This document shows positions 27,548-29,129 of a stretch of 64,000 bases of DNA, in pieces. A program made the position numbers and the translations under genes. Origin of the DNA: Klebsiella phage vB_Kpn_K7_rec17; sequence record PQ569716.1. One strand, 5' to 3'. Each line of letters starts with the position of its first letter. Position 1 is the stretch's first letter. Below the pieces are notes generated by a model. That model ran no database searches. It was not told the origin of the DNA and saw nothing but the letters and a program-made list of their open reading frames with translations.

Positions 27548-27635
27548 GGGACTTTAGCTAATCGGTTAAGCGACATAGACAGCGGTGAATTCCGGTCTAT
27601 GTAGGGAGTAACACGTAGTCTCCCAAGTTCCACCA
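27548..27635 (+). tRNA. atypical tRNA-like gene (88 nt): acceptor plus CCA but non-canonical internal arms
   Basis: Acceptor GGGACTT/AAGTTCC with discriminator A and CCA; a 6-bp CATAGA/TCTATG arm with a 16-nt loop; a GGGAG/CTCCC hairpin in place of a canonical GTTCGA T-arm. Confidence 0.3.
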
Positions 27636-27716
27636 AACATCAGAGCAGCGTGATGTACTGCAAAGACCCAAAGACCGGGGTGGACTTCTTGATTCAAAGG
27701 AGCAGGCACGAATTAC

Positions 27717-27794
27717 GCAACTGTAGCTCAGCGAGGTGAGAGCACTGGTTTGAAAGTCCAGGGGTCGTTCGTTCAAATCGAACCGGTTGCACCA
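27717..27794 (+). tRNA. tRNA-Phe (GAA)
   Basis: Acceptor GCAACTG/CGGTTGC, D-arm GCTCAGCGAGGTGAGAGC, anticodon loop TTGAAAG, T-arm GTTCGTTCAAATCGAAC, CCA. Confidence 0.75.
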
Positions 27795-27801
27795 AATTAA
27801 T

Positions 27802-27936
27802 AGTATCAATAGCTTATGGAGCTGAATAGTCCTAAAGCTCACGGTAAAGCAGCTGGCCGTTAATGAGCAGACTTGGAAACGTCTGGTGATCTCTAGGTTA
27901 GCCGGTGCGTTGGTTCGAATCCAACTGATACTTCCA
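27802..27936 (+). tRNA. elongated tRNA-like gene (135 nt) with a Ser(GGA)-like anticodon arm and a ~45-nt insertion between the 5' acceptor strand and the body
   Basis: Perfect 7-bp acceptor AGTATCA/TGATACT plus T and CCA; anticodon arm CAGAC-TTGGAAA-GTCTG; long variable arm; T-arm GTTGGTTCGAATCCAAC; no canonical-length solution found. Confidence 0.35.
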
Positions 27937-28239
27937 AATCCCAAGTAGCCCGTTACAGGCTCTCTGATTAAACTCAGACAAGCAGGTGATGGGTGACAGG
28001 ATAAAATAAGCCACCGATTTCCGGCCGTTTGACGTGGTAAAGTCCTCCAGTCAAGAAGAATTTCTGCGTGCAGAAATCACTGAAGAGCAATGGGGCAGAC
28101 AACTTGAGATAGATTGCCTATAACGTCTCAAGTAGTGGCGTTGACTTAGGGTGGCATTTTCCCGAAAGTTCGAAAAATTCATTTGCTAAACGCTCTTATT
28201 TATAATATAATAATATAAATTAATGAGAGGGCTTACCTA

Positions 28240-28434
28240 ATGAATCAAAAAATTCTTATGCGATATAATCCACGAGCTTTATGGTTCCGCTGGGAAGTGA
28301 TTGTATCGTACCAGGTACGAGTGCGTAACGGTGATCCTGAGAACAACATTATCGTGCTGGAGACATTCTCTAATAGAGATGCGGCAGTTAAGTTCCTGAA
28401 CACCATCGACAATACTTTAATCAAGGTATATTAA
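28240..28434 (+). CDS. hypothetical protein (64 aa)
   Basis: ORF track; early-promoter cassette with SD GAGAGGG. Confidence 0.6.
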   Translation: MNQKILMRYNPRALWFRWEVIVSYQVRVRNGDPENNIIVLETFSNRDAAVKFLNTIDNTLIKVY

Positions 28435-28436
28435 TA

Positions 28437-28775
28437 ATGGATATCTTTACTACTCCTGCTATCAACCTGGTCGGTGTCGGCTTATTCCAGGCAACGGTCT
28501 ATCGTATCGATGACAGCACTGACGTTGTAACGTTCATTGTACCAGAGTTCTTTCTTGAGAAGTTCTTTGAAGAGTTTGAGCAATTCCGTGAAGAGCATAA
28601 TGCTTACTCCAATATGGAAGATCTAGCAGCGATGTTCCCAACTGTATACGGCTACATCTTTGAAGGCAATGATCTGCTTTTGGATAAGTCAGAGCTGGTA
28701 GAACTCAACTGGGGCATTAGCTTTGAAGTTGGCTCTCCGTTCCCGCGGTATTTCCAAGGTCTGGAGATTCGATAA
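28437..28775 (+). CDS. hypothetical protein (112 aa)
   Basis: ORF track. Confidence 0.6.
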   Translation: MDIFTTPAINLVGVGLFQATVYRIDDSTDVVTFIVPEFFLEKFFEEFEQFREEHNAYSNMEDLAAMFPTVYGYIFEGNDLLLDKSELVELNWGISFEVGSPFPRYFQGLEIR

Positions 28776-28924
28776 TGGGCGGCTACTCTAATTTCATCGA
28801 GAATTACATTAATTCCGTAGATTCCTGGAATCAGGAAACTCTAGTGGTAGTGCTTAAAGAGAGATTCAATATCTCTACTCTAGAAGCCCTAGAGGCTATA
28901 GAAGCCTACTTGGATAATGATTAA
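28775..28924 (+). CDS. hypothetical small protein (49 aa)
   Basis: ATG overlapping the upstream stop (MGGYSNFIENY...); below the ORF-track cutoff. Confidence 0.35.
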   Translation: MGGYSNFIENYINSVDSWNQETLVVVLKERFNISTLEALEAIEAYLDND

Positions 28925-28925
28925 T

Positions 28926-29003
28926 ACCCACTTGGTCCAATCTGGTAGAGGCATGAGGCTTAAGACTTCAGGGTTCCCGGTTCGAGTCCGGGAGTGGGTA
29001 CCA
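28926..29003 (+). tRNA. tRNA with anticodon TAA (Leu by anticodon) but a short, class-I-like variable arm
   Basis: Perfect acceptor ACCCACT/AGTGGGT, anticodon stem TGAGG/CTTCA with loop CTTAAGA, 5-nt variable loop, T-arm CCCGGTTCGAGTCCGGG, CCA. Confidence 0.6.
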
Positions 29004-29006
29004 AAT

Positions 29007-29129
29007 TACGGGGCACGACTGATGGGGAAGCCGGCCTGGCTTGGGTTGAGATACGGTTCGATTCCGTAAATAAATGGTCTCGTAATTCCGCACAGGTGAT
29101 GGTAGGTTCGAGTCCTACTCCCGTATCCA
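29007..29129 (+). tRNA. elongated tRNA-like gene (123 nt) containing an extra internal T-arm-like hairpin
   Basis: Acceptor TACGGGG/TCCCGTA plus T and CCA; terminal T-arm GTAGGTTCGAGTCCTAC; an internal TACGGTTCGATTCCGTA hairpin; no canonical-length solution found. Confidence 0.3.

What the first reader, a model, noticed from the sequence alone, without database searches (positions are those of the whole stretch)
27548..29129. Three non-canonical tRNA-like genes, two of them abnormally long (135 and 123 nt)
All three have clean 7-bp acceptor stems, a discriminator base and an encoded CCA. The locus at 27802-27936 has a Ser(GGA)-like anticodon arm, a long variable arm and a T-arm, but about 45 extra nucleotides sit between the 5' acceptor strand and the body. 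The locus at 29007-29129 contains a second, internal T-arm-like hairpin. The locus at 27548-27635 replaces the T-arm with a GGGAG/CTCCC hairpin and has a 16-nt anticodon-region loop. These could be intron-containing or insertion-containing tRNAs, tRNA-derived regulatory RNAs, or decaying duplicates. Phage-encoded atypical tRNAs are of interest as possible counter-defence or host-takeover tools.
Basis: seen in the sequence. Interest (0 to 1): 0.55.

Follow-up and report, generated by a model that had tools for sequence, protein, structure and literature searches.

The report
Three tRNA-derived non-decoding phage RNAs
The three loci are real, conserved RNA genes in a T5-like Klebsiella phage that keep the top half of a tRNA but cannot read codons; one matches a long-known phage T5 RNA of unknown function, and another carries the full recognition signature for the amino acid alanine and also occurs in unrelated N4-like phages.

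Summary
The window is a T5-like Klebsiella phage (Sugarlandvirus). Its tRNA array lies at 20.6-30.6 kb, all on the + strand. All three loci exist at the stated coordinates. Each has a 7-bp acceptor stem, a discriminator base and CCA, far beyond chance.

- **Locus 3 (29007-29129)** is the orthologue of phage T5 "RNA2", annotated as a tRNA-like stable RNA of unknown function. It reads as a tRNA-Arg(CCG)-like cloverleaf with a conserved 47-nt insertion at the 5' edge of the anticodon loop. The insertion holds a covarying second T-arm.
- **Locus 2 (27802-27936)** is a tRNA-like RNA with a hairpin inserted in the D loop and a long composite "anticodon" arm. It is found in Sugarlandvirus relatives, phage Eos and Proteus phage PM135.
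- **Locus 1 (27548-27635)** belongs to an unannotated family with no Rfam match, present in both T5-like and N4-like phages. G1-C72, G2-C71, G3·U70, A73 and CCA never change while pairs 4-7 change by compensation. The "anticodon" hairpin varies freely. I predict alanylation by host AlaRS without decoding.

None is a canonical tRNA, an intron-bearing tRNA or a decaying duplicate. Their function, probably tRNA mimicry in an anti-defence island, remains inferred.

The parts
27548..27635 (+). Locus 1: an 88-nt tRNA-like RNA gene, starting 6 nt after the CCA of tRNA-Lys. It belongs to a family found in T5-like and N4-like phages.
   Evidence: There are 15 distinct homologues, and all six folded (the window copy and five relatives) give the same four-way cloverleaf.
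27548..27554 (+). Locus 1 acceptor 5' strand, GGGACUU. G3 is at 27550.
   Evidence: G1-C72, G2-C71 and G3·U70 are kept in 15/15 sequences, while pairs 4-7 vary by compensatory change.
27557..27571 (+). Locus 1 D arm, GCUAAUCGGUUAAGC. It is nearly invariant (GCUAAWCGGKUAAGC).
27573..27602 (+). Locus 1 "anticodon" arm: 8 bp, an internal loop, 3 bp and the loop UGAAUU. It varies in sequence and length among homologues and has no conserved anticodon.
27604..27624 (+). Locus 1 T-like hairpin, GGGAG-UAACACGUAGU-CUCCC. The 11-nt loop is nearly invariant.
27625..27635 (+). Locus 1 acceptor 3' strand AAGUUCC (U70 at 27629), discriminator A73 (27632) and CCA (27633-27635).
   Evidence: ACCA is invariant in the family.
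27802..27936 (+). Locus 2: a 135-nt tRNA-like RNA gene, starting 7 nt after the CCA of tRNA-Phe.
27817..27843 (+). Locus 2 hairpin inserted in the D loop. The stem is UGGAGCU/AGCUCACG and the 12-nt loop is GAAUAGUCCUAA. It is enclosed by the D stem GCUU (27812-27815) / AAGC (27847-27850).
   Evidence: Helices 2 and 3 each have 2 pairs changed on both sides.
27852..27902 (+). Locus 2 long composite "anticodon" arm: 7 bp GCUGGCC/GGUUAGC, an internal loop, 5 bp CAGAC/GUCUG, and the 8-nt loop UUGGAAAC (27873-27880).
27909..27936 (+). Locus 2 canonical T arm GUUGG-UUCGAAU-CCAAC, acceptor 3' strand UGAUACU, U73 and CCA.
29007..29129 (+). Locus 3: a 123-nt tRNA-like RNA gene, starting 3 nt after the CCA of tRNA-Leu. 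It is the orthologue of T5 RNA2 (T5s06).
29039..29085 (+). Locus 3 47-nt insertion between tRNA positions 31 and 32. It contains the T-arm-like hairpin UACGG-UUCGAUU-CCGUA (29052-29068) and the invariant CUCGUAA.
29086..29092 (+). Locus 3 anticodon-loop-like heptamer UUCCGCA. UCCGCA is invariant in all 20 homologues, and CCG sits in the anticodon position.
29102..29129 (+). Locus 3 canonical T arm GUAGG-UUCGAGU-CCUAC, acceptor 3' strand, U73 and CCA. The CCA is not conserved in relatives.
28183..28211 (+). Promoter-like site TTGCTA-17-TATAAT, homologous to annotated T5 early promoters. It places loci 1 and 2 in a different transcription unit from locus 3.

Best explanation
The three loci are three separate, conserved, tRNA-derived RNA genes embedded in the phage's tRNA array.

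**Shared design**

- Each keeps the parts of a tRNA that the maturation machinery reads: a 7-bp acceptor stem stacked on a T or T-like arm, a D arm with GG, a discriminator base, and CCA followed by the same A/T-rich trailer as the real tRNAs.
- I therefore infer that they are co-transcribed with the neighbouring tRNAs, cut out by RNase P and the 3' processing enzymes, and accumulate as stable small RNAs.
- In each, the anticodon region has been rebuilt so that the RNA cannot decode.

**The individual loci**

- **Locus 3** is the orthologue of phage T5 RNA2. It is a tRNA-Arg(CCG)-like cloverleaf with a conserved 47-nt structured insertion, including a second T-arm, at the 5' edge of the anticodon loop.
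- **Locus 2** is a tRNA body with a hairpin inserted in the D loop and a roughly 50-nt composite arm that ends in an 8-nt loop.
- **Locus 1** has an invariant D arm, an invariant 11-nt T-like loop and a freely variable hairpin in place of the anticodon arm. It also carries the complete acceptor-stem identity set for alanine (G1-C72, G2-C71, G3·U70, A73, CCA). I predict that the host alanyl-tRNA synthetase charges it with alanine.

**Proposed function (inferred, not shown)**

The RNAs act as tRNA mimics. They occupy tRNA-binding host proteins, such as defence tRNases, AlaRS, EF-Tu or SmpB, or tRNA-modifying enzymes, without entering translation. This fits their location in a region of T5-like genomes described as an anti-defence island.
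For: **Shown here**

- *Not chance.* The T-arm + acceptor + NCCA descriptor gives 23 hits, all in the + strand array, against 0.02 expected per shuffled window.
- *Same genomic grammar as the real tRNAs.* Each locus starts 3-7 nt after the preceding tRNA, and its CCA is followed by an AAT/ATT-type trailer like all 26 tRNAs.
- *Locus 3.*
  - It is homologous over its full length to the T5 misc_RNA rna2, "tRNA-like stable RNA with unknown functions".
  - Homologues occur in 246 phage records.
  - In 20 sequences, 6 of 7 acceptor pairs, 4 of 5 D-stem pairs, 3 of 5 anticodon-stem pairs and 2 of 5 T-stem pairs change on both sides.
  - The internal T-arm occurs as UACGG/CCGUA or GCUCG/CGAGU around the same UUCGAUU loop.
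  - Removing 47 nt leaves a clean 76-nt cloverleaf.
- *Locus 2.* In 6 sequences, 94.7% of cells are paired and 11 pairs change on both sides. No shuffle out of 500 reaches this, and every helix has at least one compensatory pair.
- *Locus 1.*
  - There are 15 distinct sequences with 8 different acceptor helices. G3·U70, G1-C72, G2-C71, A73 and CCA are kept in 15/15, while pairs 4-7 turn over: A-U/G-C/G·U at pair 4; C-G/U-A at pair 5; U-A/U·G/C-G/A-U/G-C at pair 6.
  - The hairpin loops differ: UGAAUU, GAAU, UACUUC, UUGAAUC, CAGUAGU, AGUAAA.
  - The window copy and all five relatives folded give the same cloverleaf.
  - The family is also present in the N4-like phages MY01 and As2 and in two metagenome contigs. 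There it stands alone beside the 3' end of the virion RNA polymerase gene, with no tRNA in the fetched DNA around the two metagenome copies.
  - It was not found in 185,579 bacterial genomes.

**From the literature**

- The bacterial alanine identity set is A73, G2-C71, G3·U70, G4-C69 and G20. That review also cites the work showing that RNA minihelices can be aminoacylated with alanine (PMC9976931).
- The T5 tRNA-rich region holds several counter-defence determinants (10.1101/2023.03.15.532788; PMC11464382).
- Host defences that cleave the tRNA anticodon arm act during T5 infection (PMC13056530).
Against: - No expression, processing or charging data exist for this phage. "Stable RNA" rests on the T5 annotation alone.
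- The encoded CCA is lost in close relatives of locus 2 (UUCA in Sealy and Kpn2-P1). It is also lost in relatives of locus 3 (UCAA, ACUA, G-ACA). Aminoacylation is therefore unlikely to be the conserved function of those two.
- In the window copy of locus 1, pair 4:69 is A-U rather than the G4-C69 of the alanine set, and G20 is not evident.
- The PM135 copy of locus 2 has an unpaired acceptor stem. Its 3' end is that of a tRNA-Pro, so at least one copy is a recombination product.
- A viable T5 deletion mutant (Δ30661-38625) lacks RNA2 (PMC11464382, using the coordinates). The RNA is therefore dispensable in laboratory hosts.
- Locus 2 rests on only six distinct sequences from a narrow clade.
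- No protein partner has been identified, so the mimic or decoy role is pure inference.
Confidence: 0.6

Rival explanations
1. The loci are processing punctuation only. They are tRNA-like cleavage signals for RNase P and RNase E that cut the long tRNA/ORF transcripts into pieces, like mitochondrial tRNA punctuation or plant t-elements. The excised RNAs would have no function of their own.
For: - They sit in tandem with tRNAs and small ORFs, with tRNA-like spacing and trailers.
- Locus 3 lies between tRNA-Leu and an ORF.
- In N4-like phages, the locus 1 relative lies at the very end of a gene block.
- Only the acceptor/T half is needed for RNase P (established knowledge).
Against: - Punctuation does not explain the invariant parts outside the acceptor/T helix: the D arm and the 11-nt loop of locus 1, CUCGUAA-N-UCCGCA in locus 3, and GUCCUA and UUGGAAAC in locus 2.
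- It does not explain the strict retention of G3·U70, A73 and CCA.
- A real tRNA already lies directly upstream of each locus and would serve as punctuation.
Confidence: 0.15
2. The loci are decaying tRNA duplicates or recombination scars. The tRNA region is shuffled by homing endonucleases and repeat-mediated deletions, and these loci are neutral hybrids and pseudogenes on their way out.
For: - The region holds T5orf172/GIY-YIG-like ORFs at 26702-27238 and 29148-29657.
- The ORF after locus 3 is absent in relatives.
- Locus 2 changes place in the array in Sealy and Kpn2-P1.
- The PM135 copy is a hybrid with the 3' end of tRNA-Pro, flanked by a direct repeat next to an HNH gene.
- The T5 tRNA region is a known deletion hotspot (PMC12483538).
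- Locus 3 shares a module (GAGAUA...AAAUGGUCU) with the RNA1 homologue.
Against: - Compensatory substitutions occur in every helix of all three families.
- Locus 3 is conserved across Tequintavirus, Epseptimavirus, Sugarlandvirus and Myunavirus.
- Locus 1 is conserved across two phage families.
- Loops stay invariant next to freely varying arms.
- Scars may explain the origin of these RNAs, but not their maintenance.
Confidence: 0.1
3. Loci 2 and 3 are intron-containing tRNAs. After removal of a 46-47-nt intervening sequence they would become working tRNA-Gln(CUG) and tRNA-Arg(CCG).
For:
- Locus 3 without the insert is a clean cloverleaf with the loop UUCCGCA, and UCCGCA is invariant.
- The array has no tRNA-Arg(CCG).
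Against: - From established knowledge, bacterial and phage tRNA introns are self-splicing group I introns of about 200 nt or more. The bulge-helix-bulge endonuclease pathway is archaeal and eukaryotic.
- No intron family matched in Rfam.
- The locus 3 insert lies at 31/32, not 37/38. It is itself the most conserved and covarying part of the RNA.
- ARAGORN's model for locus 2 uses the hairpin AGCU/AGCU, which is broken in Eos, Sealy and Kpn2-P1. It contradicts the covarying D stem 27812-27815/27847-27850.
- The discriminator and CCA of locus 3 are not conserved.
Confidence: 0.05
4. The loci work at the DNA level. The T-arm-like sequences would be recognition or immunity sites for the homing endonucleases of the tRNA region, and the RNA structure would be incidental.
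For: - T4 SegB, a GIY-YIG enzyme encoded in the T4 tRNA cluster, recognises a 27-bp degenerate site in that tRNA-gene region containing an 11-bp conserved sequence described as a conserved motif (PMC2330249).
- Locus 3, which has two T-arm sequences, directly precedes a T5orf172 ORF.
- The PM135 recombination joint lies in a T-arm.
Against: - A DNA site does not need compensatory changes that preserve RNA pairing across 100 nt.
- Locus 1 has no canonical T-arm sequence, and in N4-like phages it is not next to an endonuclease gene.
- All elements are on the transcribed strand, in register with the tRNAs.
Confidence: 0.05

Closest known systems
Phage T5 RNA2 (gene rna2, locus tag T5s06, NC_005859 32959-33083), annotated as "tRNA-like stable RNA with unknown functions"
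   Same: - Locus 3 aligns with it over its whole length.
- Both have the same cloverleaf with the same insertion, the same internal UUCGAUU hairpin, and the same invariant CUCGUAA-N-UCCGCA.
- Both lie inside the tRNA array.
   Different: - The acceptor stem differs entirely by compensatory change: UACGGGG/UCCCGUA against (C)AUUCUAG/CUAGAAU(G).
- The window copy encodes U-CCA, whereas T5 has G-ACA.
- The neighbours in the array differ.
- About 77% identity.
Phage T5 RNA1 and RNA3 (T5s03 and T5s07; "tRNA-like stable RNA" and "putative tRNA-like RNA")
   Same: - They are the same kind of object: tRNA-derived RNAs with rebuilt anticodon regions inside the tRNA array.
- The window has its own RNA1 homologue at 24938-25080.
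- The window also has a 73-nt RNA3-sized element at 29818-29890.
   Different: - Loci 1 and 2 show no sequence similarity to any annotated T5 small RNA.
- They are additional families that T5 itself lacks.
Phage T4 species 1 and species 2 RNAs (rnaC, rnaD)
   Same: - They are small stable RNAs of unknown function encoded at the end of the T4 tRNA cluster (PMC2330249, Figure 1 legend).
- rnaC has a canonical T arm near its 3' end and long inserted arms.
   Different: - There is no significant sequence similarity. The only match is a shared GGUUGAGAUA 10-mer with locus 3 and T5 RNA1, which falls within the range of shuffled controls.
- The alanine signature is absent.
tRNA-Ala, alanine minihelices and the tRNA-like domain of tmRNA (AlaRS substrates defined by G3·U70)
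   Same: - Locus 1 has G1-C72, G2-C71, G3·U70, A73 and CCA, as does the phage's own tRNA-Ala at 22744-22822.
- Recognition by AlaRS rests mainly on the acceptor helix (identity set tabulated in PMC9976931; independence from the anticodon is established knowledge).
   Different: - There is no anticodon, no tag reading frame and no pseudoknots. The RNA is 75-88 nt.
- ARAGORN's default run, which covers tRNA and tmRNA genes, reports nothing at this locus.
- The T loop is 11 nt and non-canonical, and the variable region is a single nucleotide.
- Charging has not been tested.
Aminoacylatable tRNA-like structures at the 3' ends of plant RNA virus genomes (the TYMV, BMV and TMV types)
   Same: They are viral RNAs that mimic the acceptor/T half of a tRNA, are substrates of host tRNA enzymes, and do not decode (PMC5723415).
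   Different: - Those are cis elements at the end of RNA genomes of eukaryotic viruses, and they accept Val, Tyr or His.
- Here the RNAs are free-standing small RNA genes of DNA phages.

Membership tests
Canonical decoding tRNA | A 7-bp acceptor stem, a discriminator base and a 3' CCA | tested here: met
   All three loci have these.
Canonical decoding tRNA | A 5-bp anticodon stem closed by a 7-nt loop with U33 and a conserved anticodon, at the normal distance from the elbow | tested here: not met
   - Locus 1 has a variable hairpin of 6-11 bp with unrelated loops.
- Locus 2 has a composite arm of about 50 nt with an 8-nt loop.
- Locus 3 has a 54-nt loop region, made of a 47-nt insert plus UUCCGCA.
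Canonical decoding tRNA | A T arm with a 7-nt loop of the UUCRANY type | tested here: inconclusive
   Met in loci 2 and 3. Not met in locus 1, which has the 11-nt loop UAACACGUAGU.
Canonical decoding tRNA | Recognised by standard tRNA finders | tested here: not met
   - ARAGORN in default mode finds none of them.
- The Rfam tRNA model gives 22 bits for locus 2 and 12 bits for locus 3 (T arm only), against a gathering score of 29. It gives nothing for locus 1.
T5 RNA2 family (locus 3 only) | Sequence homology over the full length to T5 rna2 | tested here: met
   nhmmer E-values of 1e-9 to 1e-12 to the T5-type copies, and an alignment of 20 sequences.
T5 RNA2 family (locus 3 only) | A shared secondary structure kept by compensatory change | tested here: met
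T5 RNA2 family (locus 3 only) | Accumulates as a stable small RNA in infected cells | not testable with these tools
   Known only from the wording of the T5 annotation.
Intron-containing tRNA | A group I intron core (about 200 nt or more), or a bulge-helix-bulge motif together with a host splicing endonuclease | tested here: not met
   The inserts are 46-47 nt and match no intron family in Rfam. The absence of a BHB pathway in enterobacteria is established knowledge and was not tested here.
AlaRS substrates (locus 1 only) | A G3·U70 wobble pair in the acceptor stem | tested here: met
   Present in 15/15 distinct sequences with 8 different acceptor helices.
AlaRS substrates (locus 1 only) | A73, G2-C71 and a 3' CCA | tested here: met
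   Invariant in the family. The identity set is taken from PMC9976931.
AlaRS substrates (locus 1 only) | The minor elements G4-C69 and G20 | tested here: inconclusive
   Pair 4:69 is A-U in the window and in the Klebsiella-phage (Sugarland-type) copies, and G-C or G·U in most other lineages. Position 20 cannot be assigned with confidence.
AlaRS substrates (locus 1 only) | Actually charged with alanine | not testable with these tools
   This needs an in vitro aminoacylation assay or an acid-gel/periodate assay.
tmRNA | A tRNA-like domain plus pseudoknots and a tag-peptide reading frame | tested here: not met
   The RNA is 88 nt with no reading frame. ARAGORN's default run, which covers tRNA and tmRNA genes, reports nothing at this locus. 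Only spurious permuted calls appear at 80% thresholds.
T4 species 1 / species 2 RNA | Sequence homology | tested here: not met
   Local alignment scores fall within the range of shuffled controls.
Y RNA-like / YrlA and every other curated RNA family | A match to a covariance model in Rfam 15 | tested here: not met

The most novel reading that the evidence does not exclude
Locus 1 would represent a previously undescribed class of phage RNA. It would be a free-standing, alanine-charged tRNA mimic with no anticodon, exchanged horizontally between unrelated virulent phages (T5-like Demerecviridae and N4-like Schitoviridae). Its aminoacylated acceptor end and its invariant, unusual elbow would be the functional parts. 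It might act as a decoy for a host factor that reads Ala-tRNA or the tmRNA tRNA-like domain (a defence enzyme, SmpB, EF-Tu or AlaRS), or as an alanine donor outside the ribosome.
Probability: 0.25. Interest if true: 0.8.

Novelty: new variant of a known kind. Interest (0 to 1): 0.55.

Why it matters
Small stable tRNA-like RNAs in the tRNA clusters of T4 and T5 are annotated in the genome records as being of unknown function.

- **The class is broader than annotated.** This window shows several independent families, each maintained by selection on RNA structure. They are almost never annotated. Relatives instead carry spurious "hypothetical proteins" on the opposite strand.
- **Locus 1 gives a concrete biochemical handle.** An invariant alanine identity set on an RNA that cannot decode can be tested in one aminoacylation assay and one point mutant.
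- **The location is suggestive.** The RNAs lie in a genome region now described as holding counter-defence determinants against tRNA-cleaving immune systems. They are therefore natural candidates for RNA-based counter-defence.

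Tried and rejected
- **Locus 2 as a tandem duplication.** I first read its 5' part as a duplication of the acceptor strand plus D arm (AGUAUCA-AU-AGCU... / AGUCCUA-A-AGCU...). I rejected this because covariation supports a D stem, 27812-27815/27847-27850, enclosing an inserted hairpin.
- **Locus 2 as a tRNA-Ser(GGA) relative.** Only the loop heptamer UUGGAAA is shared with T5 tRNA-Ser2. The acceptor stem, the discriminator U73 and the arm architecture do not fit serine identity.
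- **A target for the 11-nt loop of locus 1.** Its complement, ACUACGUGUUA, is not found elsewhere in the window above chance.
- **Pfam searches of 18 neighbouring ORFs**, looking for an aminoacyl-tRNA-dependent transferase or another partner. They found only RNase H, a cell-wall hydrolase, a DUF and two T5orf172 endonuclease-like proteins.
- **A bacterial origin for locus 1.** Two scans of 185,579 genomes found nothing.
- **More distant members.** Looser patterns on viral contigs returned only known copies. The single metagenome scan added the N4-like lineage.
- **Homology to T4 rnaC and rnaD.** Not significant.
- **Literature.** Searches for a described function of the T5 stable RNAs, or for a G3·U70 tRNA-like phage RNA, found none in the held library.
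- **Covariance model for locus 1.** I did not build one. The MAFFT alignment is out of register at the 5' end, so I counted the pairs with a script anchored on the 3' end instead.

Full report
**Context**

- The window is 100% identical over the tested stretch to Klebsiella phage vB_Kpn_K30lambda2.2 and 97% identical to phage Sugarland (Demerecviridae, Sugarlandvirus). It is therefore a T5-like virulent phage.
- ARAGORN finds 25 tRNA genes, all on the + strand between 20651 and 30563. A 26th, tRNA-Gly at 29896-29971, is annotated in the identical phage and scores weakly in Rfam.
- None of the three loci is annotated as an RNA in any relative I looked at. Several records place "hypothetical proteins" on the opposite strand, and one such ORF (27597-27944) also runs across tRNA-Phe.

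**Check of the observation**

- A descriptor scan of my own required a 5-bp T stem, a T[TG]CRANN loop, a 7-bp acceptor helix and NCCA.
- That scan gives 23 hits in the window, all on the + strand inside the tRNA array. One hundred dinucleotide shuffles give a mean of 0.02 hits.
- Locus 1 lacks a canonical T loop, so it escapes this scan. Its acceptor helix, A73 and CCA are plainly there, and its reality rests on conservation, described below.
- All 26 tRNAs and all three loci end in CCA followed by an A/T-rich trailer (AAT, ATT). The loci begin 6, 7 and 3 nt after the CCA of tRNA-Lys, tRNA-Phe and tRNA-Leu, which is the same spacing as between adjacent tRNAs.
- Standard finders do not call them. 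ARAGORN in default mode finds none. The Rfam tRNA model gives 22 bits for locus 2 with a mismatched acceptor stem, and 12 bits for the T arm of locus 3. Locus 1 gives nothing at E ≤ 10.

**Locus 3 (29007-29129)**

- The RefSeq record of phage T5 annotates eight misc_RNAs inside its tRNA region. Among them are rna1 and rna2 ("tRNA-like stable RNA with unknown functions") and rna3 ("putative tRNA-like RNA").
- Locus 3 aligns with T5 rna2 over its whole length. Homologues occur in 246 phage records from Escherichia, Salmonella, Klebsiella, Shigella, Yersinia, Pectobacterium and other hosts.
- In an alignment of 20 distinct sequences, several helices change on both sides while pairing is kept:
  - the acceptor stem (6 of 7 pairs);
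  - the D stem (4 of 5);
  - a 5-bp stem in the anticodon-stem position (3 of 5);
  - the T stem (2 of 5).
It occurs as UACGG-UUCGAUU-CCGUA or GCUCG-UUCGAUU-CGAGU, so four of its five pairs are exchanged.
- With introns allowed and thresholds at 90%, ARAGORN reads the locus as tRNA-Arg(CCG) with a 47-nt insert between positions 31 and 32. Without the insert, a clean 76-nt cloverleaf remains, with the loop UUCCGCA.
- The stretch CUCGUAA-N-UCCGCA is the most conserved part of the family.
- The encoded CCA and the discriminator are not conserved: U-CCA here, U-CAA, A-CUA, G-CCA, and G-ACA or G-ACU in T5-type copies.
- A viable T5 mutant deleted for 30661-38625 lacks rna2, which lies at 32959-33083 in the same coordinates. 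The RNA is therefore dispensable in laboratory hosts (PMC11464382).

**Locus 1 (27548-27635)**

- BLAST finds it in about 100 phage records, mostly Sugarlandvirus and some Epseptimavirus, Tequintavirus-like and Myunavirus phages. It does not find it in T5 itself.
- A pattern scan of metagenomes, followed by a further BLAST search, found it in N4-like phages (Schitoviridae): Klebsiella phage MY01 and Salmonella phage As2.
- In the two metagenome copies there are no tRNAs in the fetched DNA around it. In MY01, contig L042 and L044 it lies against the 3' end of the convergent virion RNA polymerase gene, at the end of the primase/Sak4/SSB/RusA gene block.
- It was not found in 185,579 bacterial genomes.
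- Across 15 distinct sequences there are 8 different acceptor helices: GGGACUU/AAGUUCC, GGGACUU/AGGUUCC, GGGGUCU/AGACUCC, GGGGUUC/AAACUCC, GGGGUUU/AAACUCC, GGGGUAU/AUACUCC, GGGGUGU/ACAUUCC and GGGAUAU/AUAUUCC.
- Pairs 4-7 turn over by compensatory change, yet G1-C72, G2-C71, G3·U70, A73 and CCA are present in 15 of 15.
- The D arm (GCUAAWCGGKUAAGC) and the T-like hairpin (GGGAG-UAACACGUAGU-CUCCC) are nearly invariant.
- The arm in the anticodon position varies in both length and sequence. Total length ranges from 75 to 88 nt, the differences are not multiples of three, and the loops are unrelated.
- The window copy and all five relatives folded give the same four-way cloverleaf on their own.
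[quoted passage not shown] The phage's own tRNA-Ala has the same acceptor signature.
- A G·U pair that stays fixed while its neighbours are replaced points to selection for the wobble pair itself. I therefore infer that this RNA is a substrate of host AlaRS. This has not been shown.
- It cannot be a decoding tRNA, because nothing in the anticodon position is conserved.

**Locus 2 (27802-27936)**

- Homologues are confined to Sugarlandvirus-type Klebsiella phages, phage Eos and, at 72% identity, Proteus phage PM135.
- The RNAalifold consensus of six distinct sequences is well supported. In it, 94.7% of cells are paired and 11 pairs change on both sides. No shuffle out of 500 reaches these values, slid controls collapse to 24-44% paired, and each of the six helices has at least one compensatory pair.
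  - The acceptor stem and a 4-bp D stem (GCUU/AAGC) are normal.
  - The D loop carries an inserted hairpin (27817-27843) with a 12-nt loop containing the invariant GUCCUA.
  - The anticodon position holds one long composite arm (27852-27902) that ends in the 8-nt loop UUGGAAAC.
  - A 6-nt variable region and a canonical T arm follow.
- The element has moved within the array. It follows tRNA-Leu in Sealy and follows the locus 3 homologue in Kpn2-P1. Both have UUCA instead of UCCA.
- In PM135 the 3' half of the T arm and the acceptor 3' strand are those of a tRNA-Pro of other Proteus phages. They are repeated on both sides of the element, next to an HNH gene, so the acceptor stem cannot form. 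That copy is a recombination product.

**How the loci most likely work**

- *Shown:* the sequence features, their conservation and covariation, their placement in register with the tRNAs, and the failure of each to meet the requirements of a decoding tRNA.
- *Inferred from established knowledge of tRNA maturation:* an acceptor/T minihelix with a 3' CCA and an A/U-rich trailer is what RNase P and the 3' processing enzymes need. The RNAs should therefore be excised from the same transcripts as the tRNAs. A promoter homologous to annotated T5 early promoters at 28183-28211 separates the unit holding loci 1 and 2 from the unit holding locus 3.
- *Inferred more weakly:* the RNAs act as tRNA mimics.
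  - The T5 tRNA-rich region has been called an anti-defence island. It supplies tRNA-Tyr against retron Ec78 (Eco7) PtuAB, tRNA-Lys against PARIS, and the protein Rad (10.1101/2023.03.15.532788; PMC11464382).
  - Defences that cut the anticodon arm act during T5 infection (PMC13056530).
  - An RNA with an intact tRNA top half and an altered anticodon arm is a plausible competitive ligand for such enzymes.
- For locus 1, the conserved aminoacylation signature and the invariant elbow suggest a partner that reads the charged acceptor end or the elbow. For loci 2 and 3, the loss of CCA in relatives argues against charging.
- The four rivals are processing punctuation only, neutral recombination scars, spliced intron-bearing tRNAs, and DNA-level endonuclease sites. 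Each is weighed separately in its own section. Each explains part of the picture, but none explains the invariant loops together with helix-wide covariation.

**Comparison with what is known**

- Locus 3 is a new member of the T5 RNA2 family.
- The class as a whole matches the stable RNAs of unknown function in the T5 and T4 tRNA clusters (PMC2330249). There is no significant sequence similarity to T4 rnaC or rnaD.
- Loci 1 and 2 match no annotated T5 RNA and no Rfam family.
- I found no paper in the held library that describes a function for these RNAs, or a G3·U70 tRNA-like RNA in phages. That library lacks most of the subscription literature of the 1980s, in which the T5 RNAs were first described.

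**Limits**

- All functional statements are inferences from sequence.
- The locus 2 family is small and phylogenetically narrow.
- The count of 15 sequences for locus 1 includes close relatives, although the 8 acceptor haplotypes come from at least six lineages.
- The covariation tests do not correct fully for phylogeny.

Noticed in passing
It has the acceptor stem GCUGGUU/AGCCAGC, the T arm UCCGG-UUCAAUU-CCGGG and A-CCA, but a single long hairpin replaces the D and anticodon arms. It lies 4 nt after tRNA-Thr and 5 nt before tRNA-Gly. Its size recalls T5 RNA3.
   Followed up: partly
window 24938-25080 (+): A homologue of T5 RNA1 ("tRNA-like stable RNA"), 76% identical over 117 nt. It is also present in many T5-like loci fetched here.
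   Followed up: partly
window 19253-20127 (+): Homology to T5 RNAX, a 719-nt "stable RNA with unknown functions" just upstream of the first tRNA. Identity is 85% over 132 nt and 92% over 39 nt.
   Followed up: no
window 29896-29971 (+): tRNA-Gly(UCC) is not called by ARAGORN in default mode. It is annotated in the identical phage OY978897 and scores only 27 bits, against the tRNA-Sec model, in Rfam.
   Followed up: partly
window 27636-27716 (+): The 81-nt spacer between locus 1 and tRNA-Phe is almost identical in all Sugarlandviruses compared, although their locus 1 copies differ by 11-15%. It may be another functional element or a recent recombination tract.
   Followed up: partly
window 25031-25039 and 29072-29080; L049 (T4 rnaC); L003 (T5 RNA1): AAAUGGUCU occurs only twice in the window, both times inside tRNA-like RNAs (the RNA1 homologue and locus 3). 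GGUUGAGAUA is shared by T4 species 1 RNA, T5 RNA1 and locus 3. The insert of locus 3 looks like the variable-arm hairpin of RNA1 with a T arm nested in its loop. The matches are not significant by a shuffle test.
   Followed up: partly
window 26702-27238 and 29148-29657 (+): Two ORFs with T5orf172/MUG113 (GIY-YIG-like) domains lie inside the tRNA array. The second lies directly after locus 3 and is absent from K32PH164C1 and Sealy, so it is probably a mobile endonuclease gene.
   Followed up: partly
L029 2470-2641 (Proteus phage PM135): A 32-nt direct repeat, which is the 3' end of a tRNA-Pro, flanks the locus 2 homologue next to an HNH endonuclease gene. No intact tRNA-Pro was found in the 5 kb fetched. 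This is an example of T-arm-mediated recombination in the array.
   Followed up: yes
window 27597-27944 (-) and 27566-27709 (-): Minus-strand ORFs corresponding to "hypothetical proteins" annotated in relatives overlap loci 1 and 2, and the longer one also overlaps tRNA-Phe. They are almost certainly annotation artefacts.
   Followed up: partly
window 23096-23206 (+): The gap between tRNA-Leu(UAG) and tRNA-Ser(UGA) contains the T-arm-like sequence ACAGGUUCGAAUCCUGG. It is about 80% identical to intergenic DNA of many T5-like phages. It is possibly a further tRNA-like remnant or RNA.
   Followed up: no
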